Shown here piece after piece: positions 10,430 to 62,695 of a stretch of 64,000 nt of DNA (position 1 is its first letter; each line of letters begins with the position of its first letter). A program made the position numbers and the translations under genes. Under the pieces are notes generated by a model. It ran no database searches. It was not told the origin of the DNA and saw nothing but the letters and a program-made list of their open reading frames with translations. Where the stretch lies: NCBI GenBank assembly GCA_021780535.1, contig JAJXYN010000012.1, forward strand, positions 5,688 to 69,687, given 5' to 3'. The stretch comes from a bacterium (lineage in GTDB: Bacteria > Patescibacteriota > Patescibacteriia > JAGPKW01).

Positions 10430-10648
10430 TTATTTAACGAATATATTTGCAATTATAGAAAGAGAAAGTATTGTACCTAATACAATAGTAGTTATGTAAA
10501 GAACTTTTTCAGCTCCTCTTTTTGTGGTATAAAAATTGCTTGACCCACCAAAAAGATTAGAAAGGCTAGAATTTTTGCCTTGTAATAAAACAGAAACTAT
10601 TATTAATATTGAAGTAATGAATTGTACTATTCTAAGTATTTTTTCCAT
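10430..10648 (-). CDS. secG: preprotein translocase subunit SecG
   Basis: 72 aa with two TM helices flanking the conserved 'VLLQ..K..GL...FGG' loop. Confidence 0.75.
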   Translation of the reverse strand: MEKILRIVQFITSILIIVSVLLQGKNSSLSNLFGGSSNFYTTKRGAEKVLYITTIVLGTILSLSIIANIFVK

Positions 10649-10661
10649 ATTTTTATTAATT

Positions 10662-10737
10662 TGGTAGGCCCTGTGGGAATTGAACCCACGACCATCAGCT
10701 TAAAAGGCTGTTGCTCTACCAACTGAGCTAAGGACCT
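10662..10737 (-). tRNA. tRNA-Lys (anticodon UUU)
   Basis: Reverse complement reads AGGTCCT-TA-GCTCAGTTGGTAGAGC-A-ACAGC-CTTTTAA-GCTGA...GTGGGTTCAATTCCCAC-AGGGCCT-A-CCA. Confidence 0.85.
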
Positions 10738-21270: not shown

Positions 21271-24200
21271 ATGAATAAGAAATTATTTTTTATTATTTCT
21301 GCTGGAATAATGTTTTTAGTAATTTCTTCCTTTTTGTTGTGGAATTTTGTATTAAAGAATAAATTTCTTGATAATAATGTTTTGGATCGTTATAAAAATG
21401 AATTCTCTCTATCTAATAACAATTTAAAATATGAACCATTTTTTTTAGTTCCAAGTAAAGTTTCAGAAGGTGGTTATATTTCTATTTCTGTTCCATCTGG
21501 CTTCACCGAAGAAGATGTAAAAAATAGTTTAAAATTTAATCCTGAAATAAAAGGTGATTTTGTTGATTTGAAAAATGATAAAAAAATAGGATTTAAGCCT
21601 AGTTCTGATTTAAAAATAGGGCAAGTTTTTGCTGCTTCTGTTACTTCTTCTTTAGGCTCTAATATGTCTGCTGATTTTGTTGTTGCCGAAAAACCAGAGA
21701 TATTAAATATTTTTCCAAATGAAGGAAGTGAGGTTGACCCGATGTCAAATATAACTATTATTTTTAATAGGCCAATAGTCCCATTGTCTATTGTTGATGT
21801 TATGGATAATGTTGATCTACCAATAACTATAACTCCAAAAACAGAAGGTAGATTTAAATGGATTAGTACCAATACTTTACAGTTTATACCTAATAACGGT
21901 CTTGTGTCTTCTAATAATTATAAGGTTCAAATTAATGATGGGTTTAATTCTACAGATGGTGTTAAAATAAAAGGTATAACAAGAACTTTTAAAACTAAAA
22001 TTTTAAGATATGATTCAATTGTTTCTAATAAATCTATTGTTGTTTATAATAATCCTTTTTCTATTAAATTTAATCAAAATTTTGATTTAGAAAAAACTAA
22101 AAAAGAAATTATATTAAAAGATTCAAATAATAATAATGTTGATTTTATTGCTGAATATGGATTAAATAATAAAGTTATAGATAAAACAGTATTAGTTGTT
22201 TATAAGAAACAAGATAAGTATGGAAGAAATAAATTTTGGGATTTTGAATCTAATTATTATTTAAAACTAAATAAAGCATATCCAGAAAATGGGGATATTA
22301 TTTTAGATAGTAGTTATGCTGTAAATATAGTAACAACTAAAGCTTATTCTCAAGTTTTTGCATTATCTGATAGAAGTAATTTGGTGCGAAATGATGTTTT
22401 TGATCCAAAAGGGAAATTAGCTATTAGTTTTTATGAAGATATTGATTTAGAAAAAACTATTTTTAATTCTGATAAAATTAAAAGTAAAGTTTATGCAAAA
22501 AAATGTAAAGATGAAGAATTAATAATGCCTAACTGTGATCAAGAGGATGATAAAAAAACTGTTTATTTAACATTTGATGATTCAAAAATAAAATTAGGTG
22601 AGAGTTTTAATATTAATTTGGAGAGCATTATTAATACTGCAGGTCTAAAAATTAATAATAACAATATCTCTATTTCTGTAAAAGCTTTTGATTCTTTAAA
22701 AATTCTTTCTACTTTTCCAAAAAACGGGAGTATTGGTTCTGATTTAAATACTTTTGTAATTTGTTCTAATAATCCATTAACACCACTACTTGTTGAAGAT
22801 GTTAAGAAACAATTTAAATCTAATATAGAATTTGAGCCTACTTATTTGCAAAATTCTTATTATGTTGATGCTGGTGCTGATAAAAATTATGTAAAATGTA
22901 ATATTGGAGAATATGAAACAAGATTATCTTATCTTGGCTTTGCTCCAAATTCAAATTATCAAATAGATTTTAATGTTTCTGATAATTTTGATCAGAATGC
23001 TAATTATTCTGTTAATTTCTCTACTACCAATGTAGATTATAAGACTTTAAATTTTTTTCATTATCAAGGGAAATATAATGTAACAACAAAAGATAAAACA
23101 AATTTAACTTTCGCTGGTTATAATATGGATTTTGTTGATATAAATGTGTGTAAGGTTACAGCGGAAGATATGCTTTATTATCTTACAAAAAATCCAAACT
23201 ATGCTGATAATAACTCTACTTTAAAATGTTTAAATTCCATAAATAAGCGTATAGATTTACCACGAAAATATTGGGTTAAAAATTATTTTAAAGTTGATTT
23301 AAAAGATTATTTTAATGAAGATTATGGTCATTATATTTTTAGCTTTACAAATCCTTTATATAAAGATTCTAGCGGGAAACAAGTCTATGAAAGAAGTTAT
23401 TTAACGGTTACGAATCTTGATGTTGTTGAGAAAAAAATCAATTCAGCCGAAGATTTAGAGCTTGGATCTGTGAATACAAGGGTTAATTATTTAAAAAATT
23501 TATATTTTGTAACTAAAATTTCTGATTTATCTAGTATTGCAAATGCTGATGTTGAAACTTATGTTACAGACAATTTAGCTAAAGATGGTAAAACGAAAGC
23601 TACAGATAAAGATATAAATTCTGGTAATTTTATTACTACCATTAGAAAAGTTTCAAGTAATAAAACTGGTAGTGATGGTGTTGCTAATGTTGAATCTGTA
23701 TATAAAGCAACTGGGGCTATTGTTAGAGTTGGAAATGATTCAGCTGTAATTACGAGTAATGAAAGTGGTTTGGGATATGCTAGTGATGCTTATAATTCAC
23801 AAGCTGTTTATCTTTATTCTGATAGACCTATCTATAAACCAGGGGATAGTGTTGGATTTAAAGGTATATATCGCATAGGTTATGATGGCGATTATCAAGT
23901 GTTTAAAGAGAAGAAAATCCCTGTAAAGATATATGATTCTAACAATAATGAGGTTTATAATAAAGAACTTGATGTTGATGATTTTGGATCTTTTTCTGGT
24001 TCATTTATTTTAAGTTCTAATGCTTCTGTTGGAACTTATAGAATAGAATCTAAAAATTATAATAGTTATAATTTTGATGTTCAAGAATATGTTCCAGCGG
24101 CTTTTAAAATTGATGCTAAAGTCAATAAAGATGAATTTATTGCTGGTGAAAACTTTAATATAGATTTAAATGCTAGTTATTATTTTGGAGCCCCACTTGA

Positions 24201-27200
24201 AAATGCAAAAGTTGATTATACTATTACGAGTACTGATTATTATTTTGATAAATATAAAGGAGATGGGTATTATAATTTTATAAATTCATCAGGTGATTAT
24301 TACAGAGATTATTTTGCTTATAGAGGTAGTACTGATCTTGTTAATGGTAAGGCTGTTATTAATGGGAAATTAGATTTTGAAAAATTTTTTAAAGAAGATA
24401 ATAGAGGTAGTAAAATATTTAATGTTTATATTAATATTACAAATTCTACTGGAAATTCTATAACAACTGTTAAATCTTTTATAGTTCATGCTGGTAAATA
24501 TTACATTGGCATAAATACTGATAAATATTTTCTTGGGAAAGGTGAAAATTTTAATTTAAAATTGAAAACCGTTGATACAAATGGAAATAAGGCTTCTCTT
24601 AATAATATTGATTTGAAAATTAATAAGGTTACTTGGATTTATAATAAAAGAAAAGAAGTTGATGGTTCTTATTATTATAACTGGGAAAGAAAGTATGATC
24701 TAATAAAGGAAATTACTGTTAATACAAATTCGTTAGGTGATTATTCTTCTAATTTTAATTTAAAAGATGAAGGAGAATATAATGCTGTTGCTACTTTTGA
24801 AGATGATAATGGTAACAATATTTCATCTTCTACTGATTTATATGTTTATGGTAGTGGAAGTGTTTCTATAAGACCTACAAATGATACAAGTTTAGACATG
24901 ACTGCTGAAAAAGTTGGTGATTTGAATGTCGGAGACAAAGCAAAAGTAATTATTAAATCCCCTTATAAAAATGCTAAAGCTTTTATATCTATTGAAAGGG
25001 GTAGGGTTTATTCTTATGAAATAGTTGATATTAATCAAAATATTTATGAATATTCTTTTGATTTAAAGAAAGAATATGCACCCAATGTTTACTTATCGGT
25101 TGTTTTAATTTCTTCTAAACCAGAATTAAAATATGGAAATTTAAGTTTTCAAGTTAATTCTAAAGATAAAGAATTAAATATTGATTTGAAAACAAATAAA
25201 GAAACGTATTTACCTGGTGAAAAAGTTTTTTGTGATATTAATGTCAATGATAGTAATGGAAAACCTGTTTCTACTGAATTATCTATGGCTGTTGTTGATA
25301 TGAGTGTTCTTGCGTTAAAGGGTAACCCTAAAAAAGATCCTGTTTCATATTTTTATAATTATTTTCCATTAAATGTGGCCACATCTTCTAATTTGAAAAA
25401 CATACTTAATGAAATTGATGTTGCTAATTCTACAAAAGGTGGGTCAGGAGCAGAGCCTGGAGATTTATCTAAAAAGAAAAGAGGAGAATTTAGAGATACT
25501 GCATTTTGGGGGTCTATTATAAATACGGATGCTAATGGGTTTGCTCATGTGGAATTTACATTGCCAGATAATCTTACAACTTGGCAAATAGAAACAGTTG
25601 GAGTTACAAAAGATACAAAATTAGGTGTTAATTACAAAGAATTCGTGTCAAAAAAAGAATTAATGTTAACACCTTTAAAACCTAGATTTGTTGTTATTGG
25701 TGATGAATTTCTTGTTGGTGCTAAACTATTTAATCAAACAGGGAACGATCAAATTGTAGATATTGCTTTTGATAGCGGTTATTTAGAATTTAAAGATCAG
25801 AAAAAAAATTTAAAAATAGAAATAAAAAATGGGGAAAGTAAAAATATTTATTTTAAAGTTTATGCCCCATTAACACTTAATATTGTCAATACTAATTTTT
25901 CAGTATCTGCTAAAAATTCTAAATATGAAGATTCTTTTGTTGATAGTATAAATATAAAAACTAATGATGTTTTTGAGACTACTGCTACTTCTTCATATTC
26001 TAAAAATAATGTAAAAGAATATATTTATTTGCCAGAAAATATTTCAAAAACAAAAGGAGAACTTACCGTTAATGCTAGTAATACATTATTTCCTTATATT
26101 AAATCAGCTGTAAAATATATATCAGAAACAAATGATAATTCAACAGAAGGGGTTATTTCTAAAATTATGACCGTATTAAGTTTGAAGAAATTAAATAATT
26201 TAAAACTTACAGATAATATTGATCAGATAAAATATAATAATATTTCTTACGGTATTGATGAAGTTATTCCTGTTTTGCTTTCTGATTTGTATAAAAATTA
26301 CAGAAAATATGATGGTTTTGTTTATTATGCTGATTCTTATTATGTTGATTATTATTTAAATCTTTATGCTTTTAATACATTGACTAGTCTTAAAGATAGT
26401 GGAATTACAATTTCTGATGATATTTATAAAGATTTACAATCAACTATATTGAATAAAATAAATAATAATAGCGATTTGTATTCTGATAAAAATACTATAA
26501 TTGCTACTACTTATTCATTATCAAATTCTTTAAAATATAATGTTATTAATATAGATAGTTTAACATCTATTATCAATGGGTATTTGAAAAATAATAAATT
26601 TTTAGAATTAGATTCTTCAAATTTTTCATTGATTTATTTGATTGATATTATTAATAATAATAAATTAGATAACAATAATATTGATAAAATTTATAATATT
26701 TTGGAAAATAGAATTCAATTTGATTCTCGTGGGGCTTTCTTGCAGCCAGTTAATCCTATTTTAAGATTATATGAAAATTCTGTTTCTGATACAGCTTTAT
26801 TTGTTGATGAATTTTCTAGTTTGAAAAAAGATTTTGTTTCTTATGATAAATTACTTATGTGGCTTAATTCATCAAAAAACAACGATGGATATTGGAATAA
26901 TGAGGTTAATACAAAGATGGTTATGAATGCTTTTATTTCTTATATGGAGTTTACTTCTTCTATTTCTTCTTCATTAAATACCACTACTAATCAAATAGAT
27001 ATTTTAGTTAATGATAAAAAAATCAATGGAAATGTTGTACCAATATCTAATTTAAAAACGGATTTACTCAATTCTGTTTCTATAAATAAAAGTGATAAAA
27101 ATACTGGTTTGTATTATGATATTGCACTTAAATATTATGTTCCAGCAAACCAGATTAGTAAAACAGATGAAGGATTTGTTATTGATAGGGGATTTTATAG

Positions 27201-27648
27201 ATTAAGTGATAAAAAATTTGAAAATAAGGTAAGTGATGCAAGGGTTGGGGAAGTTTTAAATGGAAGAATTGAAGTTGTTGTTCCGAAAGATAGAAATTAT
27301 GTGAATATTGATTCTTATATTCCTGCTGGGTTTGAACTTGTAAATTTTTCTTTTACTACTGAAAATCAAAATAATTATATTGATAATAAAAATAATCAAT
27401 ATAATCAATGGCAAAATTATTATATAGCTCCAGATGAACAAGATTTATATCCTGATTATCAAGAAATTAGAGATAATGAATTGTTTTTATTCAAGCAAAC
27501 ACTAACTCCTGGAATTTATAAATTTGATTATTATGTGAGGGCTTTAATTCCTGGTAAATATAGTTTTTTACCATCTTATATCTATGAAAAATATACTCCA
27601 GAAAATTTTGGAAGAACCGATGGATCTGAATTTGTTATAAATCAATAA
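21271..27648 (+). CDS. alpha-2-macroglobulin-family large extracellular protein (2,125 aa), N-terminally membrane-anchored, apparently thioester-less
   Basis: N-terminal TM/signal. It has MG-domain-type DRPIYKPGDSVGFKG and LPDNLTTWQIETVG (A2M 'PDSITTW'-like) motifs. No CxEQ thioester motif was found. Confidence 0.7.
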   Translation: MNKKLFFIISAGIMFLVISSFLLWNFVLKNKFLDNNVLDRYKNEFSLSNNNLKYEPFFLVPSKVSEGGYISISVPSGFTEEDVKNSLKFNPEIKGDFVDLKNDKKIGFKPSSDLKIGQVFAASVTSSLGSNMSADFVVAEKPEILNIFPNEGSEVDPMSNITIIFNRPIVPLSIVDVMDNVDLPITITPKTEGRFKWISTNTLQFIPNNGLVSSNNYKVQINDGFNSTDGVKIKGITRTFKTKILRYDSIVSNKSIVVYNNPFSIKFNQNFDLEKTKKEIILKDSNNNNVDFIAEYGLNNKVIDKTVLVVYKKQDKYGRNKFWDFESNYYLKLNKAYPENGDIILDSSYAVNIVTTKAYSQVFALSDRSNLVRNDVFDPKGKLAISFYEDIDLEKTIFNSDKIKSKVYAKKCKDEELIMPNCDQEDDKKTVYLTFDDSKIKLGESFNINLESIINTAGLKINNNNISISVKAFDSLKILSTFPKNGSIGSDLNTFVICSNNPLTPLLVEDVKKQFKSNIEFEPTYLQNSYYVDAGADKNYVKCNIGEYETRLSYLGFAPNSNYQIDFNVSDNFDQNANYSVNFSTTNVDYKTLNFFHYQGKYNVTTKDKTNLTFAGYNMDFVDINVCKVTAEDMLYYLTKNPNYADNNSTLKCLNSINKRIDLPRKYWVKNYFKVDLKDYFNEDYGHYIFSFTNPLYKDSSGKQVYERSYLTVTNLDVVEKKINSAEDLELGSVNTRVNYLKNLYFVTKISDLSSIANADVETYVTDNLAKDGKTKATDKDINSGNFITTIRKVSSNKTGSDGVANVESVYKATGAIVRVGNDSAVITSNESGLGYASDAYNSQAVYLYSDRPIYKPGDSVGFKGIYRIGYDGDYQVFKEKKIPVKIYDSNNNEVYNKELDVDDFGSFSGSFILSSNASVGTYRIESKNYNSYNFDVQEYVPAAFKIDAKVNKDEFIAGENFNIDLNASYYFGAPLENAKVDYTITSTDYYFDKYKGDGYYNFINSSGDYYRDYFAYRGSTDLVNGKAVINGKLDFEKFFKEDNRGSKIFNVYINITNSTGNSITTVKSFIVHAGKYYIGINTDKYFLGKGENFNLKLKTVDTNGNKASLNNIDLKINKVTWIYNKRKEVDGSYYYNWERKYDLIKEITVNTNSLGDYSSNFNLKDEGEYNAVATFEDDNGNNISSSTDLYVYGSGSVSIRPTNDTSLDMTAEKVGDLNVGDKAKVIIKSPYKNAKAFISIERGRVYSYEIVDINQNIYEYSFDLKKEYAPNVYLSVVLISSKPELKYGNLSFQVNSKDKELNIDLKTNKETYLPGEKVFCDINVNDSNGKPVSTELSMAVVDMSVLALKGNPKKDPVSYFYNYFPLNVATSSNLKNILNEIDVANSTKGGSGAEPGDLSKKKRGEFRDTAFWGSIINTDANGFAHVEFTLPDNLTTWQIETVGVTKDTKLGVNYKEFVSKKELMLTPLKPRFVVIGDEFLVGAKLFNQTGNDQIVDIAFDSGYLEFKDQKKNLKIEIKNGESKNIYFKVYAPLTLNIVNTNFSVSAKNSKYEDSFVDSINIKTNDVFETTATSSYSKNNVKEYIYLPENISKTKGELTVNASNTLFPYIKSAVKYISETNDNSTEGVISKIMTVLSLKKLNNLKLTDNIDQIKYNNISYGIDEVIPVLLSDLYKNYRKYDGFVYYADSYYVDYYLNLYAFNTLTSLKDSGITISDDIYKDLQSTILNKINNNSDLYSDKNTIIATTYSLSNSLKYNVINIDSLTSIINGYLKNNKFLELDSSNFSLIYLIDIINNNKLDNNNIDKIYNILENRIQFDSRGAFLQPVNPILRLYENSVSDTALFVDEFSSLKKDFVSYDKLLMWLNSSKNNDGYWNNEVNTKMVMNAFISYMEFTSSISSSLNTTTNQIDILVNDKKINGNVVPISNLKTDLLNSVSINKSDKNTGLYYDIALKYYVPANQISKTDEGFVIDRGFYRLSDKKFENKVSDARVGEVLNGRIEVVVPKDRNYVNIDSYIPAGFELVNFSFTTENQNNYIDNKNNQYNQWQNYYIAPDEQDLYPDYQEIRDNELFLFKQTLTPGIYKFDYYVRALIPGKYSFLPSYIYEKYTPENFGRTDGSEFVINQ

Positions 27649-32237: not shown

Positions 32238-32361
32238 ATGTTTAGAAAATAATTTATTAATGTTCTAGTACAAAATTTACTAGTTGGTGGGTATTATAAC
32301 ATTTAAATTTAAAACTGAAAAACTGAAAAATTTAAAACAATTTTAAATTTCAGTTTTTAAA

Positions 32362-33030
32362 TTATATTATTTCTTCCAGTGATATTGGTGTTATGTGATT
32401 TGATGATAAATTGAGTATTTGTGGTTCTATGGTTTCTTTTGTTGGAGTAGATATTTTATTTGTTAAGATGGTAGAAGTTTCTGTCGCACTTAAGTTAGTA
32501 GCAGGTTTTGTTATGTTTTCTATTGCTACCCATGTGCTATTTTTATTTGTTGGCACTATTACAACTACTTCATCTCCAATTTCTCCTTTGTAATAGGTTA
32601 CTGAAGCTTTTTGTACTCTATAAACTGTTCCTTCTGCTAATACTGCAAATCCTTTGTTTATTTCATCTTTTATTAATGTTCCTATTAATCTTGTTCTATC
32701 TATTTGTTCTATTTGTTTATATACAAAAGTACCATCTTTTTTGATAGTTAATTTCATTTTATCTCCTTCTACTATTTTTGATTTTGATATGTAATTTGCT
32801 GGGATACTGTATTGTTTGGAATCTGGCCCTATCATAATTTCTCCGTTGAATACACCTTCTATTATTTTACTATCCTCTTCAAAATATTCTGAAGTATCAA
32901 TGTTTTTGAATTTGTTTAATATTTCATTAGATTTTTCTGGCTCTATATTAATTAAGTTTATTGTTTCTTCTACTTGTTTTTTTATTAGCAAAAGATTTTC
33001 TAAAATTTGTGATAAATTTTCTTGGTTCAT
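32362..33030 (-). CDS. hypothetical protein (222 aa)
   Basis: ORF only. A perfect AT-rich palindromic hairpin (AAAACTGAAAAATTTAAAA/TTTTAAATTTCAGTTTTT) lies just 3' of it on the minus strand. Confidence 0.45.
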   Translation of the reverse strand: MNQENLSQILENLLLIKKQVEETINLINIEPEKSNEILNKFKNIDTSEYFEEDSKIIEGVFNGEIMIGPDSKQYSIPANYISKSKIVEGDKMKLTIKKDGTFVYKQIEQIDRTRLIGTLIKDEINKGFAVLAEGTVYRVQKASVTYYKGEIGDEVVVIVPTNKNSTWVAIENITKPATNLSATETSTILTNKISTPTKETIEPQILNLSSNHITPISLEEII

Positions 33031-35277: not shown

Positions 35278-35296
35278 AAGTTATAATTATTGATAA

Positions 35297-35392
35297 AAAA
35301 ACTAATAATAATGTTTTCTTTTCATGGTGTTTCGCCCAATTAAGATATCACATGAGCTTCACAAATGAACGAAAACATTATTATTAGTTTTT
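35297..35392 (+). repeat. hairpin element family, copy A: 22-bp perfect inverted repeat enclosing a conserved roughly 53-nt core
   Basis: AAAAACTAATAATAATGTTTTC / GAAAACATTATTATTAGTTTTT flank the core TTTTCATGGTGTTTCGCCCAATTAAGATATCACATGAGCTTCACAAATGAAC. TGcTATAAT follows immediately at 35394-35402. Confidence 0.6.
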
Positions 35393-35436
35393 ATGCTATA
35401 ATTTAATATAAAGTAATCAAGTTAATTGCTATTATT

Positions 35437-39422: not shown

Positions 39423-39750
39423 GAATATCAGTTAATTAATAATTTAAATATTAATTAACATTGTACTATGTTTTTGAGCCGAAGTCAATAATAAAAAACC
39501 AAAACTGAAAAAATCAAGAACCAAAACAAAACGAAAATATTTCTAGTTTTAAAATTTGGTTTTTAAAATTTGAATTTGTTTTGGTTTTTGGTTTTTTCAG
39601 TTTTTAATTTAAAATATTATTCATCTAACATAAGGTAAATTTCATGTCTAGTCTTTACATCTTTTATCTCCTATGGTATATTTTTTATATCGAACCAAGA
39701 ATATTGGTTTTTTATTATTACAAGATATTTAAAAGAAAGGTAAAAAAATT

Positions 39751-49830: not shown

Positions 49831-49933
49831 TTTTGTAAAAAAAGATTGTAAATATATGATAATAGTGTAAAATGAATTGTATGTTTTGTTAATTTTATCA
49901 ATTTTTTGTGAATTTATTTAATGCATTAAATTT

Positions 49934-50012
49934 AACTATAATATTTTTTTTCATGGTGTTCCGTTTAATTAAGATATTAAAGGAACTTACAAATGAATAA
50001 AAATATTATAGT
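49934..50012 (+). repeat. hairpin element family, copy B: 15-bp perfect inverted repeat with a different sequence from copies A/C, same core
   Basis: AACTATAATATTTTT / AAAAATATTATAGTT flank the core TTTCATGGTGTTCCGTTTAATTAAGATATTAAAGGAACTTACAAATGAAT. Confidence 0.6.
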
Positions 50013-50050
50013 TAAATTTTAAAATATAAAACGTTATTAAAATTTAAAAA

Positions 50051-51826
50051 ATGAATAAATATAAAATAAAATTAATTGAATTATTAAAAACCGTGAATAT
50101 TAACGGTGTTAGTCTTTCCGATATTCCAAACAGTTGGCTAAATCAAAAAATAGAATCAAAAATAGATTTTCTAAATAGAGATGAAAAGTCTTATAATTTT
50201 GTTTATGGATTAGTTGAGGCTCCGAAGGATTTGAAAAATGGAGATTTTTCTTTTCCTTGTTTCTTTTTTGCTATGAAAGGGGTTGATTTGGTAAAAAATC
50301 CAAACGAAGCTGCTAATATAATTTATTCTCAAATTTTAAATAATAATATTTTTGATGTTTCAGTTGCTGGTCCTTTTTTGAATTTTAAAATTAAGGAATC
50401 TATTTTAATTGATGAATTTTCTAATTATAAAGAAAATTTAGATTTATTAAAAAATATTGGAAATAATAAAAAGATATTAATTGAATATTCGTCTCCAAAT
50501 ACTAATAAATCTCAACATCTTGGTCATTTAAGAAATAATCTTTTGGGTGTTTCTTTATCTAATATTTTTAGAGATTGCGGTTTTAATGTTGTTACTAGTT
50601 GTATTTTTAATGATAAAGGAACGGCAATGGCTAAGACTATTTGGGGGTATATGAAATTTGGGAATAACTCTGAGCCGAATGATATAAAATCTGATAAATT
50701 TGTTTCTGAATTTTATGTAAAAGCAAGTCAATATGAAAAAGAACATCCAGAAGTTACTGAAGAAATTAATGAAATAAATAGAAAGTGGGAGAATGGAGAT
50801 GTAAAAGTTGTGGCTATGTGGAAAAAGCTTGTTGATTGGGTTTATGAGGGCTATAAAGAAACTTATGAAAAATTAGGTTGTACTTTTGATTATAAATATT
50901 ATGAAAGTGATATTTACAAAAAAGGCAAAGAAATATCTCAAGAAGCATTTAAAAATGGAATTTTGAAGGAAGGTGATAGTGGGGCTATTGTAACAAATTT
51001 AGAAAAATATGATTTGCCGGATACTATTGTTATTAAATCTGATGGTACTAGCCTTTATATTACTCAAGATATTTATTTAGCAAAATTGAGAAATGAAGAA
51101 ATTTGTCCAGATAAAACTATTTATATAGTTGCAAATGAACAAAATCTTCATTTTAAACAATTGTTTGCATTACTTGACCAATTACATATTGGTAAACGTG
51201 AAAATTATTTTCATTTGAATTATGGATATGTGACTTTGCCTACCGGTAGAATGAAGAGTAGAGAAGGAACTGTTGTTGATGCTGATGATTTGATTGATAG
51301 TGTTGTAAAGGAAGCGCAATTAATTGCGCCTGGACAAAAAAATGTTGCGGAAGAAATAGGTCTTGGTGCTGTTAAATTCCAATTTTTAAAAGTGGATGCT
51401 TTTTCTGATTTTGTTTTTGATCCTATTAAATCTATTGAATTAACAGGAGATACGAGTGTTTATATTCAATATGCTTATGCAAGAATTAACTCAATATTTA
51501 ATAAATTAAATATTGATAGTTTAAAATTTAATAATTTAAAATTTAAAAATATAAAATTAGAGAATGAAGAAATTAATCTTATGAGGGAGATTTTAACTTT
51601 TAATGATTCTATGGAAAAAGTTATTGAAACCTATTCTCCATCTTTTCTTTGTAAAAAATTGTTAGATATTGCAAATGCTTATAATTCTTTTTATCAAAAA
51701 TGTAGAATTTTGGATTTAGAAAATGATGATTTAAAGAATTTTAGACTTGAATTGAGTAGAATAACGTCTGTTTATATTAAATATGGATTAAATTTATTAG
51801 GTATTAATATTGTTGATAAAATGTAA
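50051..51826 (+). CDS. argS: arginyl-tRNA synthetase
   Basis: HIGH motif SSPNTNKSQHLGHLRN and the class I anticodon-binding C-terminus. Size is 591 aa. Confidence 0.9.
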   Translation: MNKYKIKLIELLKTVNINGVSLSDIPNSWLNQKIESKIDFLNRDEKSYNFVYGLVEAPKDLKNGDFSFPCFFFAMKGVDLVKNPNEAANIIYSQILNNNIFDVSVAGPFLNFKIKESILIDEFSNYKENLDLLKNIGNNKKILIEYSSPNTNKSQHLGHLRNNLLGVSLSNIFRDCGFNVVTSCIFNDKGTAMAKTIWGYMKFGNNSEPNDIKSDKFVSEFYVKASQYEKEHPEVTEEINEINRKWENGDVKVVAMWKKLVDWVYEGYKETYEKLGCTFDYKYYESDIYKKGKEISQEAFKNGILKEGDSGAIVTNLEKYDLPDTIVIKSDGTSLYITQDIYLAKLRNEEICPDKTIYIVANEQNLHFKQLFALLDQLHIGKRENYFHLNYGYVTLPTGRMKSREGTVVDADDLIDSVVKEAQLIAPGQKNVAEEIGLGAVKFQFLKVDAFSDFVFDPIKSIELTGDTSVYIQYAYARINSIFNKLNIDSLKFNNLKFKNIKLENEEINLMREILTFNDSMEKVIETYSPSFLCKKLLDIANAYNSFYQKCRILDLENDDLKNFRLELSRITSVYIKYGLNLLGINIVDKM

Positions 51827-58238: not shown

Positions 58239-58258
58239 TCTTGTTTTAATATATAAAT

Positions 58259-58344
58259 CTAATTAATAATGTTTTCTTTTCATAGTGTTCCGCTCGGTTA
58301 ATTTTTAAATGAGCTCACAAATGAATGAAAACATTATTAATTAG
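58259..58344 (+). repeat. hairpin element family, copy C: 18-bp perfect inverted repeat, same core
   Basis: CTAATTAATAATGTTTTC / GAAAACATTATTAATTAG flank the core TTTTCATAGTGTTCCGCTCGGTTAATTTTTAAATGAGCTCACAAATGAAT. Confidence 0.6.
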
Positions 58345-58370
58345 ATAATTAGATTTATTTTTAAAATTAT

Positions 58371-59726
58371 TTGCTAATTATTTATTTTATGTTTTTAATC
58401 TTGTTGTTTTTATTATGTAGTGGTGGATTTTTTTGGATGTATTTTTTTTATAAAAAAAATAAATTTTCTTTTGATAATTTATTTTTTGGTTTGTGGTTTT
58501 TATTTGTTGCTGTTGCTCAATTGAGATTAAGTCCTCTTGAGTCTGTTTTTGGTCCTAGTTTTTGGATTGCTATTGGTATTTTTTCTTTGTTTTTTTATTT
58601 GGTTTATAATTTGGTGAGAATAAAATTAAATAAAAAAATACCAGAAAATGAACATAAAATAGATATAGATGAAAATTTTTTTCTTATAGTATTAAGTATT
58701 ATGTTTGTTGTTAGTATTATTGCTAATTTGTATATATTTTTTAAATTTGGCACTATGCCTATATTTGCTACCGCTCCTGATAGAATGAGATTTGTGATTA
58801 ATAAAGAAACTTTTGGACTTATACAATATGCAGCCTTTTTACCTAGAATTTTTATACCATTTTCTTTTATATTTTTGTTTAAAAAGGGTGAAATTATTAA
58901 ATTATGGAAGAAAATTTTTGTTATATTGATGATATTTTTTGGTTTTTTGATTTTACTTATGTATGCTTCTCGTGTTGTTATATTGTTTCCGATAATAATT
59001 TCGTTTTTTTCTTATTTGGTTTTGAAAATAAAAGATATTAAATTAAAGCAAATTGTTATTTCTTCTTTTATTGTCGTTTTTTCTGTTTTGTTTTTGTCTG
59101 TTGTTATCCCTGTTTTTAGACAATATATAACATATAAAGATTATTATGGTAAGGTTTATAATGCAAAAACTGGAGAATTTGATTTAGAATCTGCGCCATT
59201 TAATTATATTTTGGATATATCAAAAATAAATATTCCAAAAAAGTTTAATTTATTAGTTCCTTTATATATTGTGCCTAGTTTTAATTTGCAAACCTTTTAT
59301 CACGCTACTAATTATTTTGGTGGATCTCATGATTTTTATTATGGAAAATATTTGGCATCTATTTCGGATTCTTTTGTTAAGAGATTTGGTGTTAAGTTTT
59401 TTGATATAAATATTAAATGGGGAGATATATTTTTGCCTTGGTGGAATACTGGTACTTTTTTATTTGATTTTTGGGCGGATTTTGGATATTTTGGTATGAT
59501 ATTTGCTGCTATTATTTTTGGATCTATTTTCGCTTCTATTTATGTTTTTGCAACTAAAAAAAATAATCTTATATTTACTTTGCTTTTTGCTTATTTCAAT
59601 TTTTTTATAGTGATGAGTATTTATACAAATTATATTAGAAGGGAAGAACTTTATGTTGATATAGCTTTAATGTTTGCACTACATTTTACATTTTATTTTT
59701 ATGGAAAGAAGAAAACAAAGAAATAA
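58371..59726 (+). CDS. polytopic membrane protein, O-antigen/oligosaccharide repeat-unit polymerase (Wzy)-like
   Basis: 451 aa, more than 10 TM helices, location after the flippase and GT2 genes. Confidence 0.5.
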   Translation: MLIIYFMFLILLFLLCSGGFFWMYFFYKKNKFSFDNLFFGLWFLFVAVAQLRLSPLESVFGPSFWIAIGIFSLFFYLVYNLVRIKLNKKIPENEHKIDIDENFFLIVLSIMFVVSIIANLYIFFKFGTMPIFATAPDRMRFVINKETFGLIQYAAFLPRIFIPFSFIFLFKKGEIIKLWKKIFVILMIFFGFLILLMYASRVVILFPIIISFFSYLVLKIKDIKLKQIVISSFIVVFSVLFLSVVIPVFRQYITYKDYYGKVYNAKTGEFDLESAPFNYILDISKINIPKKFNLLVPLYIVPSFNLQTFYHATNYFGGSHDFYYGKYLASISDSFVKRFGVKFFDINIKWGDIFLPWWNTGTFLFDFWADFGYFGMIFAAIIFGSIFASIYVFATKKNNLIFTLLFAYFNFFIVMSIYTNYIRREELYVDIALMFALHFTFYFYGKKKTKK

Positions 59727-60561: not shown

Positions 60562-62388
60562 ATGCGTTTTGAAAAAAGTTTTTTTGCTGAGATTTTTAAT
60601 TCCATTAGGTTTAGAATAGTTTTATTAAACTTGCTTATTGGTTTTTTTGTTGCTATTAGTGTTGGATTTGCTCTTTACTTAAAAACAAATCTATCACTAT
60701 CAGAATCATCTGTTGATGACTTAAAAATAAATGCAAATGTAGCTTTCGATTATTTTAATAAAACATATTTAGGTGCTTGGCATATTGCAGATAATAAACT
60801 TTATAAAGGAGATGTTGAAATTAATTCTGATTTTAATGATTCTTTGGATTTTATCGTTTCAAAAAACGCCTTCAATGGTTATGTGACAGCTGTTTTTTTA
60901 AATGATACTTGTGCATCAACTACCATTTCAGATGAAAATGGTAAGAAAACTATTGGCATTAAAGTTGATCAGGATACGGTTACTAATGTTATCAAAAATG
61001 GTCAAAATTATTATACAATAATAAAACTTTTTAATGATAATTGTTATGCGGCTTATTTACCAATAAAAGATGAAAACAATAACAATATTGGTATGTTCTT
61101 TTTTGGTGAACCAGAAAAAGGGACTAGTGATTTGATTTTGTCTATTGTGCTACTTGTTGTTATAGTTTTACTTTTTGTTTTTGTTATTTCTTTTATTCTT
61201 AGTTTTATAATTGCCTCTAGAATTGTTAAACCAATTAACGAGGTTAATAAGGTTCTTTCTTTAATAGTAAAGGGAGACGGGGATTTGAGTATTAAAATAA
61301 ATTCAAACTATAAAGGTGAGGTTGGTGAGCTTTCTAATAATTTCAATTCTTTTATTGGTAGGCTTGGTGATATTATATTAAAAATCAGAGGAGTTTCTTC
61401 TGATTCTAAAACTTTTGGTGATGAGTTATCTGCTAGCTCTTATGAATCTTCTGCAGCTTTAAGAGAGATGTCTGCTAGTATTAAATCTATAGATGTTTCT
61501 TCTAGAAAGCTAGAAAATACTATTAATGAAGAAGTTAATATGCCAATTCTTGGTATTAATAATCACATGAAGAGTGTTTCTGACCAAAATGCTTCACAAT
61601 TAGTTGCTATTAACCAAACGCTAGCTTCTGTATCCCAGATGATCTCTAAGTTATCTGGTCTAGTTACTCTTAATAATGAAAAAATGTTTTTTATAGAAGA
61701 TATGGTTAAAGCAGCTGAGATGGGTAAAACCGAAATGGTATCATTGGTAAAAGCTAATAGTGATATTTCTGCTGATATTGTGAAAATAAACGAGGCTAAT
61801 GGACTTATTGAAAAAATATCATCTCAGATAAGTTTACTTGCTATGAATGCTGCTATTGAGGCTTCTCATGCTGGTAATGCTGGTAAGGGATTTGCTGTTG
61901 TTGCTAAGGAAATGACAAATTTAGCAGTATCTTCACAAGATGGTGTTAAAAAGATTAGTGATCTTACAAAACAAATTCTTGCTAGTGTGAAAGTTGGAAA
62001 TGATAAAACATTGAAGGCTAATTCCGTTATTGGAGAACTTTTGAAGGGTATATCGGAAATAGTTACCTTAATGAAGTATTTTCATGAGAGTCTTAACCAA
62101 ATTTCTTCTGGAATTGATCAAGTGAATAAAGTAACGGAAAATGTTGTTTCTATTTCTAAAATAGTTGCTGACTCAATTGTTGAAATAGAGGGTAAAATTG
62201 CTACTGTTACTAATGGTTCTGATAGAGTAGTATCTCTTTCAAGGGAGGTGTCTCAAGGTATATCGGAGATATCTATCGGAATTAATGAAAACAATGAAGC
62301 TGTTCTACAAATTGCTGATGCTAGTCGAAAGAATGCTGATAATATAGATATTTTGGATAGGGAACTATCTGTTTTTAAAACGATTTAG
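60562..62388 (+). CDS. methyl-accepting chemotaxis protein (periplasmic sensor + TM + HAMP + MCP signalling domain)
   Basis: SD CAGGAGGTG. Two TM helices. The signalling-domain core LLAMNAAIEASHAGNAGKGFAVVAKEMTNLA is highly conserved. Confidence 0.85.
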   Translation: MRFEKSFFAEIFNSIRFRIVLLNLLIGFFVAISVGFALYLKTNLSLSESSVDDLKINANVAFDYFNKTYLGAWHIADNKLYKGDVEINSDFNDSLDFIVSKNAFNGYVTAVFLNDTCASTTISDENGKKTIGIKVDQDTVTNVIKNGQNYYTIIKLFNDNCYAAYLPIKDENNNNIGMFFFGEPEKGTSDLILSIVLLVVIVLLFVFVISFILSFIIASRIVKPINEVNKVLSLIVKGDGDLSIKINSNYKGEVGELSNNFNSFIGRLGDIILKIRGVSSDSKTFGDELSASSYESSAALREMSASIKSIDVSSRKLENTINEEVNMPILGINNHMKSVSDQNASQLVAINQTLASVSQMISKLSGLVTLNNEKMFFIEDMVKAAEMGKTEMVSLVKANSDISADIVKINEANGLIEKISSQISLLAMNAAIEASHAGNAGKGFAVVAKEMTNLAVSSQDGVKKISDLTKQILASVKVGNDKTLKANSVIGELLKGISEIVTLMKYFHESLNQISSGIDQVNKVTENVVSISKIVADSIVEIEGKIATVTNGSDRVVSLSREVSQGISEISIGINENNEAVLQIADASRKNADNIDILDRELSVFKTI

Positions 62389-62620: not shown

Positions 62621-62695
62621 TGGGGAATCGCCAAGTGGTAAGGCTCCGGCCTTTGGAGCCGGCATGCGTAGGTCCGAATCCTACTTCCCCAGCCA
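62621..62695 (+). tRNA. tRNA-Gln (anticodon UUG); U1-A72 first pair, 3-bp D stem
   Basis: TGGGGAA-TC-GCC-AAGTGGTAA-GGC-T-CCGGC-CTTTGGA-GCCGG-CATGC-GTAGG-TCCGAAT-CCTAC-TTCCCCA-G-CCA. Confidence 0.8.

What the first reader, a model, noticed from the sequence alone, without database searches (positions are those of the whole stretch)
35297..35392. Three-copy family of ~80-95-nt hairpin elements with co-varying closing stems (copy A, between dnaB and dnaX)
Copies lie at 35297-35392, 49934-50012 and 58259-58344. Each is a perfect inverted repeat of 15-22 bp that encloses a conserved roughly 50-nt core, TTTTCAT(G/A)GTGTT(T/C)CG...TTAA...(G)A(G/A)CT(T/C)ACAAATGAA. The core itself begins and ends with complementary TTTTCAT/ATGAA. 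All copies are plus-strand, start 19-108 nt after the preceding gene or terminator, and end 26-45 nt before the next plus-strand gene (dnaX, argS, Wzy-like).

Copies A and C share the stem AATAATGTTTTC/GAAAACATTATT. Copy B has a completely different but still perfectly complementary stem (AACTATAATATTTTT/AAAAATATTATAGTT). Changes in one arm are compensated in the other, which argues for selection on the hairpin itself (RNA structure or DNA cruciform) rather than for a decaying MITE.

Copies A and B also carry a start-to-stop micro-ORF in the core with similar peptides: MVFRPIKISHELHK (35324-35368) and MVFRLIKILKELTNE (49953-50000). Three of the roughly nine codon differences are synonymous. 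Copy C has ATA instead of ATG. In copy A a TGnTATAAT -10 box follows immediately (35394-35402), so the element may sit on top of the -35 region of the downstream promoter.
Basis: seen in the sequence. Interest (0 to 1): 0.8.

Follow-up and report, generated by a model that had tools for sequence, protein, structure and literature searches.

The report
Small hairpin-forming mobile repeat family
The three look-alike ~100-base hairpins are real and belong to a small family of repeated palindromic DNA elements that were inserted between genes only in this uncultivated bacterium's lineage, most likely a miniature mobile element whose hairpin shape is kept intact, not a gene-specific regulatory switch or a tiny protein gene.

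Summary
Copies A, B and C exist at the stated places, share a ~50-nt asymmetric core and have mismatch-free stems of 20-22 bp. A fourth, decayed copy (D) lies about 8.6 kb left of the window. Stem covariation is real: 8 pairs changed on both sides, none on one side, 0/500 shuffles. Copy B's stem is a diverged homologue of the A/C stem, not an unrelated sequence.

All four slots are empty at the orthologous sites of related species that keep gene order. No copy was found in about 110 kb of non-redundant relatives' DNA, in the two large public collection scans, or in Rfam. So these are lineage-specific insertions next to unrelated genes.

My best reading is a non-autonomous, MITE/REPIN-like palindromic mobile repeat whose hairpin, as ssDNA or RNA, is required for propagation or is homogenised arm-to-arm. 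Weak points are:
- Only 4 copies are known.
- A possible 9-bp target duplication appears at A and C only.
- No transposase is present in 92 kb.
- The termini are the least conserved part.

The micro-ORF is rejected. The "sits on the -35" idea fits copy A only.

Novelty: a new member or variant of a known kind. Interest is moderate.

The parts
35293..35394 (+). Copy A, whole palindromic element (ATAAAAAAAC...GTTTTTAT), between dnaB and dnaX
   Evidence: Sequence. CM R1 scores 107 bits. Hairpin energy -29.6 kcal/mol, z -6.5. The slot is empty in relative L032, which has a 41-nt spacer.
35297..35318 (+). Copy A left arm, AAAAACTAATAATAATGTTTTC. It pairs without a mismatch with 35371-35392.
   Evidence: I6
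35319..35370 (+). Copy A asymmetric core. It contains TTTTCATGGTGTT ... CACAAATGAA with an inner 5-bp stem (TTCAT/ATGAA) and a 3-bp stem (GTG/CAC), and conserved 2x1 and 1x2 internal loops.
35371..35392 (+). Copy A right arm, GAAAACATTATTATTAGTTTTT
35280..35288 (+). Left copy of a possible 9-bp target duplication, GTTATAATT. It lies 2 nt after the dnaB stop, like the single TGTTATAAT box of relative L032.
   Evidence: The statistics are weak; support comes from collinearity with L032 on both sides.
35395..35403 (+). Right copy of the possible duplication, GCTATAATT. It overlaps the extended -10 box TGCTATAAT (35394-35402) of dnaX, which is conserved together with the downstream AAGTAAT motif in L032, L034 and L167.
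49928..50019 (+). Copy B, whole element, 31 nt upstream of argS and downstream of tRNA-Pro and its terminator
   Evidence: Sequence. R1 scores 88 bits. Hairpin energy -30.6 kcal/mol, z -8.6. Identical in a strain variant, L168. Absent upstream of argS in L163 and L160.
49928..49948 (+). Copy B left arm, AAATTTAACTATAATATTTTT. It pairs without a mismatch with 49999-50019.
   Evidence: I5
49949..49998 (+). Copy B core, with an apical stem GTTCC.TTTAAT/ATTAAAGGAAC
49999..50019 (+). Copy B right arm, AAAAATATTATAGTTAAATTT
58253..58358 (+). Copy C, whole element (ATAAATCTAATT...AATTAGATTTAT), between a family-2 glycosyltransferase gene and the O-antigen-polymerase-like gene (ATG at 58389)
   Evidence: Sequence. 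R1 scores 103.5 bits. Hairpin energy -32.7 kcal/mol, z -9.0. The slot is only 21 nt long in L163. Identical in L029 and L030; Logan contig L031 begins inside its left arm.
58257..58276 (+). Copy C left arm, ATCTAATTAATAATGTTTTC. It pairs without a mismatch with 58327-58346.
   Evidence: I4
58277..58326 (+). Copy C core (ATA replaces the ATG of the proposed micro-ORF)
58327..58346 (+). Copy C right arm, GAAAACATTATTAATTAGAT
58347..58354 (+). Second copy of the 8-nt tandem duplication AATTAGAT (the first is 58339-58346). It forms a bulge in the extended stem.
   Evidence: Read directly from the sequence
58244..58252 (+). Left copy of a possible 9-bp target duplication, TTTTAATAT
   Evidence: L163 has one TTTTAAAT at the empty site. 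Not significant on a free scan.
58359..58367 (+). Right copy of the possible 9-bp target duplication, TTTTAAAAT

Best explanation
**What it is.** The copies belong to a lineage-specific family of ~95-106-bp palindromic, non-coding mobile repeats. They are MITE-like in anatomy and REPIN- or bcr1-like in the way the hairpin is conserved.

**Anatomy.** Each unit has ~20-25-bp inverted-repeat arms (consensus ATAAAW.YTAAT.ATAATRTTTTY). The arms enclose an asymmetric ~50-nt core that continues the hairpin through TTCAT/ATGAA and GTG/CAC, with fixed internal loops.

**Shown.**
- There are four dispersed copies in about 92 kb.
- All four sit in intergenic DNA next to unrelated genes.
- All four are absent from the orthologous slots of related species.
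- Three have mismatch-free stems although the copies differ from one another by 22-30%.
- One copy has decayed.

**Inferred.**
- New copies come from a diversified pool of source elements.
- Only units that can still form the hairpin, as single-stranded DNA or as RNA, are copied. Selection at the level of the element, rather than a service to the host, would then produce the arm-to-arm covariation. Alternatively, arm-to-arm correction by intramolecular template switching produces it.
- The conserved core and its asymmetric bulges are the likely sequence-specific recognition part. The basal stem is recognised as structure.
- Once inserted, copies are usually co-transcribed with the downstream gene (certainly D, probably B and C) and can decay (D).
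- Any effect on expression is a side effect.
For: - **Family and structure.**
- **Covariation.** Eight pairs changed on both sides, none on one side, 0/500 shuffles, and the slid registers collapse. RNAalifold gives independent support.
- **Arms belong to the element.** The arms are homologous over their full length in all four copies, so they are not target sequence.
- **Empty orthologous slots in syntenic relatives.**
  - A: L032 has a 41-nt spacer.
  - B: L163.
  - C: L163 has a 21-nt spacer.
  - D: L169, where the promoter and 5' UTR are about 90% identical up to the start codon.
- **No copies elsewhere.** None in the relatives' loci, about 110 kb without counting duplicate contigs, by CM or nhmmer. 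Only chance-like hits in the GTDB representative genomes and JGI metagenomes for the two-part core pattern. No Rfam family, even at E <= 10.
- **Decay.** Copy D has 4-5 uncompensated transitions and poor + strand folding.
- **Possible target duplication.** A 9-bp direct repeat flanks a 106-bp unit at both A and C, and each relative's empty site holds a single similar sequence.
- **Repeat behaviour in assemblies.** One short-read contig starts inside copy C.
- **Precedent for mobile intergenic repeats with compensatory hairpin changes.** REPINs (PMC3116915) and bcr1 (review PMC3184786). Bacterial MITEs are typically under 200 bp, fold into long hairpins and often lie 5' of genes (PMC3184786).
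Against: - Only four copies are known, because the rest of the genome could not be reached.
- The target duplication is seen at 2 of 4 copies, each with one mismatch. It is not significant on a free scan of AT-rich flanks (P about 0.28 per copy; 0.016 if required to abut the ends).
- TA..TA flanks occur at all four copies but cannot be told apart from an extension of the inverted repeat.
- No transposase or HUH/Y1 gene lies in the 92 kb examined.
- The termini are the least conserved part (52-60% identity) and the inner stem and core flanks the most conserved (84-90%). This is the opposite of what sequence-specific end recognition by a classical transposase predicts.
- All four copies have the same orientation as the downstream gene and lie 30-44 nt from its start codon. 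A random inserter would not obviously do this (n = 4, p about 0.1).
- In relatives the same slots hold a different palindromic family. This could mean the hairpin position itself is selected.
Confidence: 0.6

Rival explanations
1. The element is a host-selected cis-acting RNA hairpin in 5' UTRs and intercistronic spacers, for example an mRNA stabiliser, an RNase III processing site or an attenuator. It has spread to several genes, and the covariation reflects selection on the transcript's structure.
For: - The covariation has no single-sided intermediates.
- All four copies are co-oriented with the downstream gene and lie 30-44 nt from its start codon.
- D is certainly inside a 5' UTR, downstream of a conserved promoter with 11/12 matches.
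- C is intercistronic in a conserved gene cluster.
- Relatives have other hairpin elements in the same slots.
Against: - The downstream genes are functionally unrelated.
- The element is absent from the orthologous leaders of relatives, which have short spacers of 21-41 nt, so it is not needed for those genes.
- D is the one copy proven to lie in a 5' UTR, and it has lost + strand folding (-11.2 kcal/mol, z -0.6).
- Wobble versus A.C asymmetry does not single out one strand: A and D favour the minus strand, B and C the plus strand.
- No Rfam match.
- There is no terminator-like U-tract or GC-rich stem.
Confidence: 0.17
2. The element is a DNA-level palindrome kept perfect without any selection. 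The arms are homogenised by intramolecular template switching (quasipalindrome correction) or by hairpin-directed repair during replication. In that case the covariation says nothing about function or mobility requirements.
For: - The stems are perfect while copies are only 70-78% identical.
- Compensated indels occur as well as substitutions: CTAAT-AAT in A against CTAATTAAT in C, mirrored in the other arm.
- Both strands fold about equally well in A, B and C.
- Quasipalindrome correction is an established mutational process. This rests on my own knowledge, not on a test here.
Against: - It does not explain the origin or dispersal of the copies, so it can only complement a mobile-element model.
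- It does not explain why the core's internal loops stay asymmetric in all copies instead of being 'corrected'.
- D has kept 4-5 arm mismatches.
Confidence: 0.12
3. The element carries a small protein gene or leader peptide: the 14-15-codon micro-ORF MVFRPIKISHELHK / MVFRLIKILKELTNE in the core.
For: A and B have start-to-stop ORFs in the same register, and their first four residues are identical.
Against: - C has ATA instead of ATG and a stop after 8 codons.
- D carries a 2-nt indel relative to A and B, so the frames diverge after residue 7 (MVSCPINFRGAHK).
- Indels among the copies are not multiples of three.
- The peptide similarity is fully explained by DNA conservation of the core.
Confidence: 0.02
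4. The elements are integron attC-like or REP/RAYT recombination sites in the strict sense.
For: - The element is a hairpin with conserved structure, variable stem sequence and fixed extra-helical positions.
- B happens to match the attC R''/R' consensus: ATTTAAC ... GTTAAAT.
- Orientation is 4/4 on the leading strand.
Against: - A, C and D do not match RYYYAAC/GTTRRRY.
- The neighbouring genes are core housekeeping genes in conserved synteny, not cassettes.
- No integrase lies nearby. The serine recombinase about 16 kb to the right belongs to an island next to tRNA-Gln.
- There is no GTAG/CGTC tag, and the ends are the least conserved part.
Confidence: 0.05

Closest known systems
Bacterial MITEs (Correia/CREE of Neisseria, RUP of S. 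pneumoniae, ERIC of enterobacteria)
   Same: - Size of about 100 bp, with no coding capacity.
- Terminal inverted repeats of 20-26 bp, and the whole unit folds into one long hairpin.
- Dispersed in intergenic DNA, often just 5' of genes or inside operons.
- Present or absent at orthologous sites.
- TA at both ends is compatible with the sequence.

The general features are taken from PMC3184786.
   Different: - No cognate insertion sequence or transposase was found.
- The target duplication is unproven.
- The termini are the least conserved part, and the arms co-vary instead of matching one fixed transposase-binding sequence.
- The copies are unusually divergent (70-78% identity), yet their stems are intact.
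REPINs (REP doublets forming hairpins) mobilised by RAYT transposases
   Same: - A ~70-110-nt hairpin is the replicative unit.
- Compensatory changes across the hairpin are common (PMC3116915).
- Location is extragenic.
- Selection acts at the level of the element.
   Different: - In REPINs the two ends (REP 16-mers) are invariant and the spacer co-varies. Here the centre is conserved and the outer stem co-varies.
- There is no GTAG/CGTC tag.
- The presence of a RAYT gene could not be checked.
- Copy number is unknown.
bcr1 repeats of the Bacillus cereus group
   Same: They are mobile, transcribed intergenic repeats with compensatory base changes that preserve an RNA structure. Some copies have lost stability (review PMC3184786).
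   Different: - bcr1 is about 155 bp, with a two-stem cruciform-like fold and clear 5-bp direct repeats.
- There is no sequence similarity.
- Transcription of the present elements is inferred only from promoter positions.
Integron attC sites
   Same: Recognition would be by folded structure, with variable stem sequence and conserved asymmetric unpaired bases.
   Different: - The defining R''/R' boxes are absent in 3 of 4 copies.
- There is no integrase.
- The flanking genes are syntenic housekeeping genes.

Membership tests
MITE (non-autonomous DNA transposon) | Small size (under about 300 bp) and no coding capacity | tested here: met
   Units are 92-106 bp. The micro-ORF is not conserved.
MITE (non-autonomous DNA transposon) | Terminal inverted repeats | tested here: met
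   Arms of 20-25 bp are homologous in all four copies.
MITE (non-autonomous DNA transposon) | Target-site duplication flanking each copy | tested here: inconclusive
   - 9-bp direct repeats with one mismatch occur at A and C, and none at B or D.
- The free-scan null gives P about 0.28 per copy, and the abutting null 0.016.
- TA..TA occurs at all four copies but is confounded with the inverted repeat.
MITE (non-autonomous DNA transposon) | Multiple dispersed copies, with presence/absence at orthologous sites | tested here: met
   Four copies lie in about 92 kb, and all four slots are empty in syntenic relatives. Within-species polymorphism was not seen: B and C are identical in other samples.
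MITE (non-autonomous DNA transposon) | A cognate autonomous element or transposase with the same ends | not testable with these tools
   None lies in the 92 kb reachable. The rest of the genome could not be fetched.
REPIN / REP-RAYT system | Two inverted REP units with highly conserved ends, commonly tagged GTAG or CGTC | tested here: not met
   There is no GTAG/CGTC tag. The outermost 10 nt of each arm are the least conserved segment, at 52-60% identity.
REPIN / REP-RAYT system | Hairpin with compensatory changes | tested here: met
REPIN / REP-RAYT system | A RAYT (Y1/HUH) gene in the same genome | not testable with these tools
   None lies in 92 kb.
Integron attC site | R'' RYYYAAC and R' GTTRRRY boxes at the base of the hairpin | tested here: not met
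   Only B fits (ATTTAAC / GTTAAAT). A, C and D do not.
Integron attC site | An adjacent integron integrase and a cassette array | tested here: not met
   The neighbours are syntenic core genes.
Described structured RNA family (Rfam 15, including small ribozymes and riboswitches) | A match to a curated covariance model | tested here: not met
   Only tRNAs reach the gathering score. Nothing lies on the elements even at E <= 10.
Intrinsic terminator | A G+C-rich short stem followed by a U-tract | tested here: not met
   No terminator-like site falls on any copy. The stems are A+U-rich and 20-22 bp long.
Small protein or leader-peptide gene | A reading frame conserved among the copies | tested here: not met
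   C lacks the start codon and has an early stop. D is frameshifted.

The most novel reading that the evidence does not exclude
The family is a hairpin-shaped mobile element of a kind not yet described. It would be recognised through its conserved apical core and fixed bulges, while the basal stem is read only as structure. It would be mobilised as single-stranded DNA or through an RNA intermediate by an as yet unidentified enzyme of this Patescibacteria-like lineage, and it would insert preferentially just upstream of genes on the leading strand. A related reading is that the host has adopted such hairpins as interchangeable modules at fixed promoter-proximal slots, which would explain why another palindromic family fills the same slots in sister species.
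Probability: 0.2. Interest if true: 0.65.

Novelty: new member of a known kind. Interest (0 to 1): 0.4.

Why it matters
Small palindromic repeats have hardly been described in candidate-phyla-radiation-type bacteria, whose genomes are small and usually considered poor in mobile DNA. A full-text search found no paper that deals with MITEs in Patescibacteria.

This family shows intact 20-22-bp stems despite 22-30% divergence between copies. That makes it a clean case for asking whether hairpin conservation in bacterial repeats reflects element-level selection, mutational arm-to-arm correction or host function.

Practically, such repeats break short-read assemblies of these MAGs. One contig begins inside copy C, and a relative's contig ends inside a family-2 element. 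They can also be mistaken for riboswitch-like leaders. If the structure-recognition reading is right, a new mobilising enzyme should exist in this lineage.

Tried and rejected
1. **Homologues in public collections.** I searched GTDB representative genomes and JGI metagenomes with the pattern TTCATNGTGTTNCGN{15,45}ACAAATGAA.
   - All hits lack flanking inverted repeats and come from unrelated, often GC-rich, organisms.
   - A cluster of 53-nt matches in moss-associated metagenomes is one conserved, probably eukaryotic locus with no arms.
   - These hits are chance.
2. **Viral contigs.** I scanned them with the 5' core. There were 120+ hits, and none of the 80 loci tested was recognised by the covariance model.
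3. **Rfam.** I searched at gathering and permissive thresholds and found no family, including no small ribozymes.
4. **tRNA origin.** nhmmer gave a weak hit of the core to the 3' half of tRNA-Lys (E = 0.24). The alignment does not preserve the T-arm, so I rejected it.
5. **Outer stem copied from the target.** I considered that the outer stem might be an inverted duplication of target sequence, or that the elements might insert into pre-existing hairpins. I rejected this because the arms are homologous across all four copies over their full length.
6. **A ~21-nt flanking duplication at D.** It is not significant (null P = 0.57).
7. **An outward -35 box in the right arm.** No consistent hexamer lies at a fixed distance from the -10-like boxes that follow the copies. 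This was checked by eye.
8. **Plasmid and phage collections.** blastn found only short matches with E >= 0.3.
9. **Walking further along the contig.** A concatenated two-protein query did not return the identical proteins.
10. **Transposase search.** I scanned the unannotated ORFs of the region against Pfam and found none.
Full report
**1. The observation**

The core 16-mer TTTTCATRGTGTTYCG occurs three times without a mismatch, always on the + strand. All other matches need three mismatches and are at chance level.
- Each copy folds into a single long hairpin that is far more stable than shuffled sequence (z = -6.5, -8.6 and -9.0). This holds as RNA or as DNA and on either strand.
- The perfect arms are:
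  - A: 22 bp (35297-35318 / 35371-35392)
  - B: 21 bp (49928-49948 / 49999-50019)
  - C: 20 bp (58257-58276 / 58327-58346)
- Inside the arms the hairpin continues through TTCAT/ATGAA and GTG/CAC, with the same small asymmetric internal loops in every copy. It ends in a variable apical stem-loop.
- The same sequences appear in independent assemblies from several samples, so they are not assembly artefacts.

**2. Source organism**

- The window lies on a 178-kb ENA contig (ERZ27236853 k141_1379583). The same organism is also assembled as MAG GCA_027355865.1.
- It has 26% G+C.
- Its DnaX has its nearest named relatives among Patescibacteria MAGs, at under 50% identity. Unnamed relatives at 63-79% identity exist in metagenomes.
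- GC skew is positive across the whole window, so the + strand is probably the leading strand.

**3. A fourth copy and the shape of the family**

- A covariance model built from A, B and C finds nothing else in the window.
- It does find a fourth copy, D, in the left flank: L037 634-722, + strand, 68 bits. D lies about 30 nt upstream of a pseudouridine-synthase gene.
- The copies are only 70-78% identical.
- Aligned in register, the arms are homologous over their whole length (consensus ATAAAW.YTAAT.ATAATRTTTTY). B's stem is therefore a diverged version of the A/C stem, differing at about 5-6 of 18 positions, and D bridges the two.
- On the four-copy alignment:
  - 95.3% of cells are paired.
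  - Eight pairs changed on both sides and none on one side only.
  - All measures exceed 500/500 shuffles and every slid register.
  - RNAalifold finds the same helix on its own.
  - A one-base indel between A and C is also mirrored in the other arm.
- The five unpaired cells all belong to D. Four of them are A.C on the + strand, which would read as G.U on the - strand; the fifth is an A.A cell where the real fold has a bulge.
- D therefore folds poorly as + strand RNA (-11.2 kcal/mol, z -0.6) but still folds as - strand RNA (-23.7 kcal/mol, z -4.4).
- With so few events this asymmetry (about 1/16) is only a hint. Small wobbles in B and C point the other way.

**4. Are they conserved leaders or insertions?**

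I fetched the orthologous regions of three related species through DnaX, ArgS and RluD homologues. Gene order is conserved.

| Slot | Window genome | Relatives |
|---|---|---|
| A (dnaB-dnaX) | 159 nt | 41 nt in L032. The stop codon is followed directly by TGTTATAAT and the conserved AAGTAAT...ATG leader. |
| B (upstream of argS) | contains copy B | 97 nt in L163, without the element. |
| C (glycosyltransferase to polymerase-like gene) | 150 nt | 21 nt in L163. |
| D (upstream of the pseudouridine-synthase gene) | see below | Empty in L169. |

- For slot D, the promoter (TAGACA-17-TGTTATAAT) and leader of L169 are about 90% identical to the window genome up to a few bases before the start codon. 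The window genome then carries about 139 extra bases that contain D.
- Neither the covariance model nor an nhmmer profile finds any copy in the relatives' loci, about 110 kb of non-redundant DNA.
- The two-part core pattern gave only chance-like hits in GTDB representative genomes and JGI metagenomes.
- The four copies are therefore lineage-specific insertions next to functionally unrelated genes. They are not ancestral regulatory leaders.

**5. Insertion signature**

- At A and C a 9-bp direct repeat with one mismatch flanks a 106-bp unit in both cases:
  - A: GTTATAATT / GCTATAATT
  - C: TTTTAATAT / TTTTAAAAT
- At A both repeats are collinear with the single TGTTATAAT box of L032. The left repeat sits next to the dnaB stop codon. 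The right repeat sits at the conserved distance from AAGTAAT.
- This looks like a target duplication. However, in such AT-rich DNA a free scan finds an equally good repeat at 28% of random places, or 1.6% if the repeat must abut the ends.
- B and D show none, and a longer duplication at D is not significant.
- All four copies are also bracketed by TA..TA. Because TA is its own complement, this cannot be separated from the inverted repeat.
- I therefore call the target duplication inconclusive.
- No transposase, HUH or integrase gene that could act on the elements lies in the 92 kb examined.

**6. Position relative to transcription**

- D lies about 35 nt downstream of the predicted start of a strong, conserved promoter, so it is inside the 5' UTR.
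- C lies between genes that are almost contiguous in relatives, so it is probably co-transcribed.
- B follows the tRNA-Pro terminator and promoter-like hexamers.
- A lies immediately upstream of the conserved extended -10 box of dnaX, and no terminator separates it from dnaB.
- 'Sitting on the -35' therefore describes A only.
- No terminator-like feature coincides with any copy.
- The proposed micro-ORF fails on C (no ATG, early stop) and on D (frameshift).

**7. Interpretation**

- The anatomy is that of a bacterial MITE (general features from PMC3184786):
  - a small, non-coding unit with long inverted-repeat arms that folds into one hairpin;
  - dispersed intergenic copies;
  - empty orthologous sites;
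  - one decaying copy.
- Three features are unusual:
  - The arms co-vary perfectly.
  - The copies differ by a quarter of their bases.
  - The termini are the least conserved part (52-60% identity), against 84-90% for the inner stem and core flanks.
- Mobile repeats whose hairpin is preserved by compensatory changes are known: REPINs (PMC3116915) and bcr1 (PMC3184786). In REPINs, however, the ends are invariant and the middle co-varies.
- The reading I commit to, at about 0.6:
  - This is a non-autonomous mobile repeat whose ability to form the hairpin, as ssDNA or RNA, is required for being copied.
  - Recently inserted copies (A, B, C) therefore always have intact stems, even though they descend from a diversified pool.
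  - Old copies (D) decay.
- Arm-to-arm correction by template switching may contribute, and it is the main neutral alternative.
- A host-selected RNA hairpin remains possible. Supporting points are the orientation (4/4), the constant distance to start codons and the fact that another palindromic family occupies the same slots in relatives. It is weakened by the unrelated genes, the empty orthologous leaders and the loss of + strand folding in the one copy that is certainly in a 5' UTR.

**8. Novelty and verdict**

- There is no Rfam family, no similar DNA in plasmid or phage collections and no paper on such elements in Patescibacteria.
- It is a new member, arguably a new variant, of the known kind 'palindromic intergenic mobile repeats'.
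Its functional leanings (cis-regulatory RNA, micro-ORF, promoter overlay) are not supported.
- Interest is moderate. The decisive work is a whole-genome census, which I could not run because the collection scans and contig look-ups were exhausted.

Noticed in passing
window 39481-39625 and 32293-32362; L034 9836-9965; L167 1-44; L160 3461-3525: There is a second, unrelated family of AT-rich palindromic intergenic elements, with motifs CTGAAAAA/TTTTTCAG, CAAAAC/GTTTTG and TTTAAATTTGAATTT. It is shared between this genome and its relatives. In relatives it occupies the very slots that hold copies A and B here: directly upstream of the dnaX -10 box in L034 and L167, and upstream of argS in L160. 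The L167 contig ends inside it.
   Followed up: partly
L037 634-722 (about 8.6 kb left of window position 1): The fourth copy (D) folds only as minus-strand RNA. All the base-substitution mismatches in its stems are A.C on the + strand. It lies in the 5' UTR behind a conserved promoter, TAGACA-17-TGTTATAAT (L037 561-589).
   Followed up: yes
L160 11462-11539: A relative carries another AT-rich palindrome with TTTCTTAA tandem repeats in the glycosyltransferase-to-polymerase spacer, which is the slot of copy C.
   Followed up: no
window 62621-62695 and L028 12265-21827 (to the right of the window): tRNA-Gln is followed by what looks like an integrated island. It carries a 1347-aa ORF without Pfam domains, a large serine recombinase split into two ORFs, a TaqI-like restriction enzyme and a LexA/S24-methyltransferase fusion.
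   Followed up: no
window 58371-58389: The mechanical ORF for the O-antigen-polymerase-like gene starts at TTG 58371. Homologues in L160 and L163 align from the ATG at 58389 (MFLI..LFLLCSGG).
   Followed up: partly
window 50051-51826: Apart from close relatives, the best named homologues of the arginyl-tRNA synthetase (about 43% identity) are mostly from DPANN archaea (Woesearchaeota, Nanoarchaeota), with one Patescibacteria entry at 42%. This suggests possible inter-domain transfer.
   Followed up: no
window 21271-27648, 60562-62388: The window encodes a 2125-aa alpha-2-macroglobulin-like protein and a Cache-domain methyl-accepting chemotaxis protein. Relatives have 7TMR-DISM GGDEF proteins. 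This is unusual content for a genome whose replication proteins look Patescibacteria-like.
   Followed up: no
window 10647-10694 (- strand): There is a weak nhmmer similarity (E = 0.24) between the element core and the 3' half of tRNA-Lys. I judged it to be chance.
   Followed up: yes
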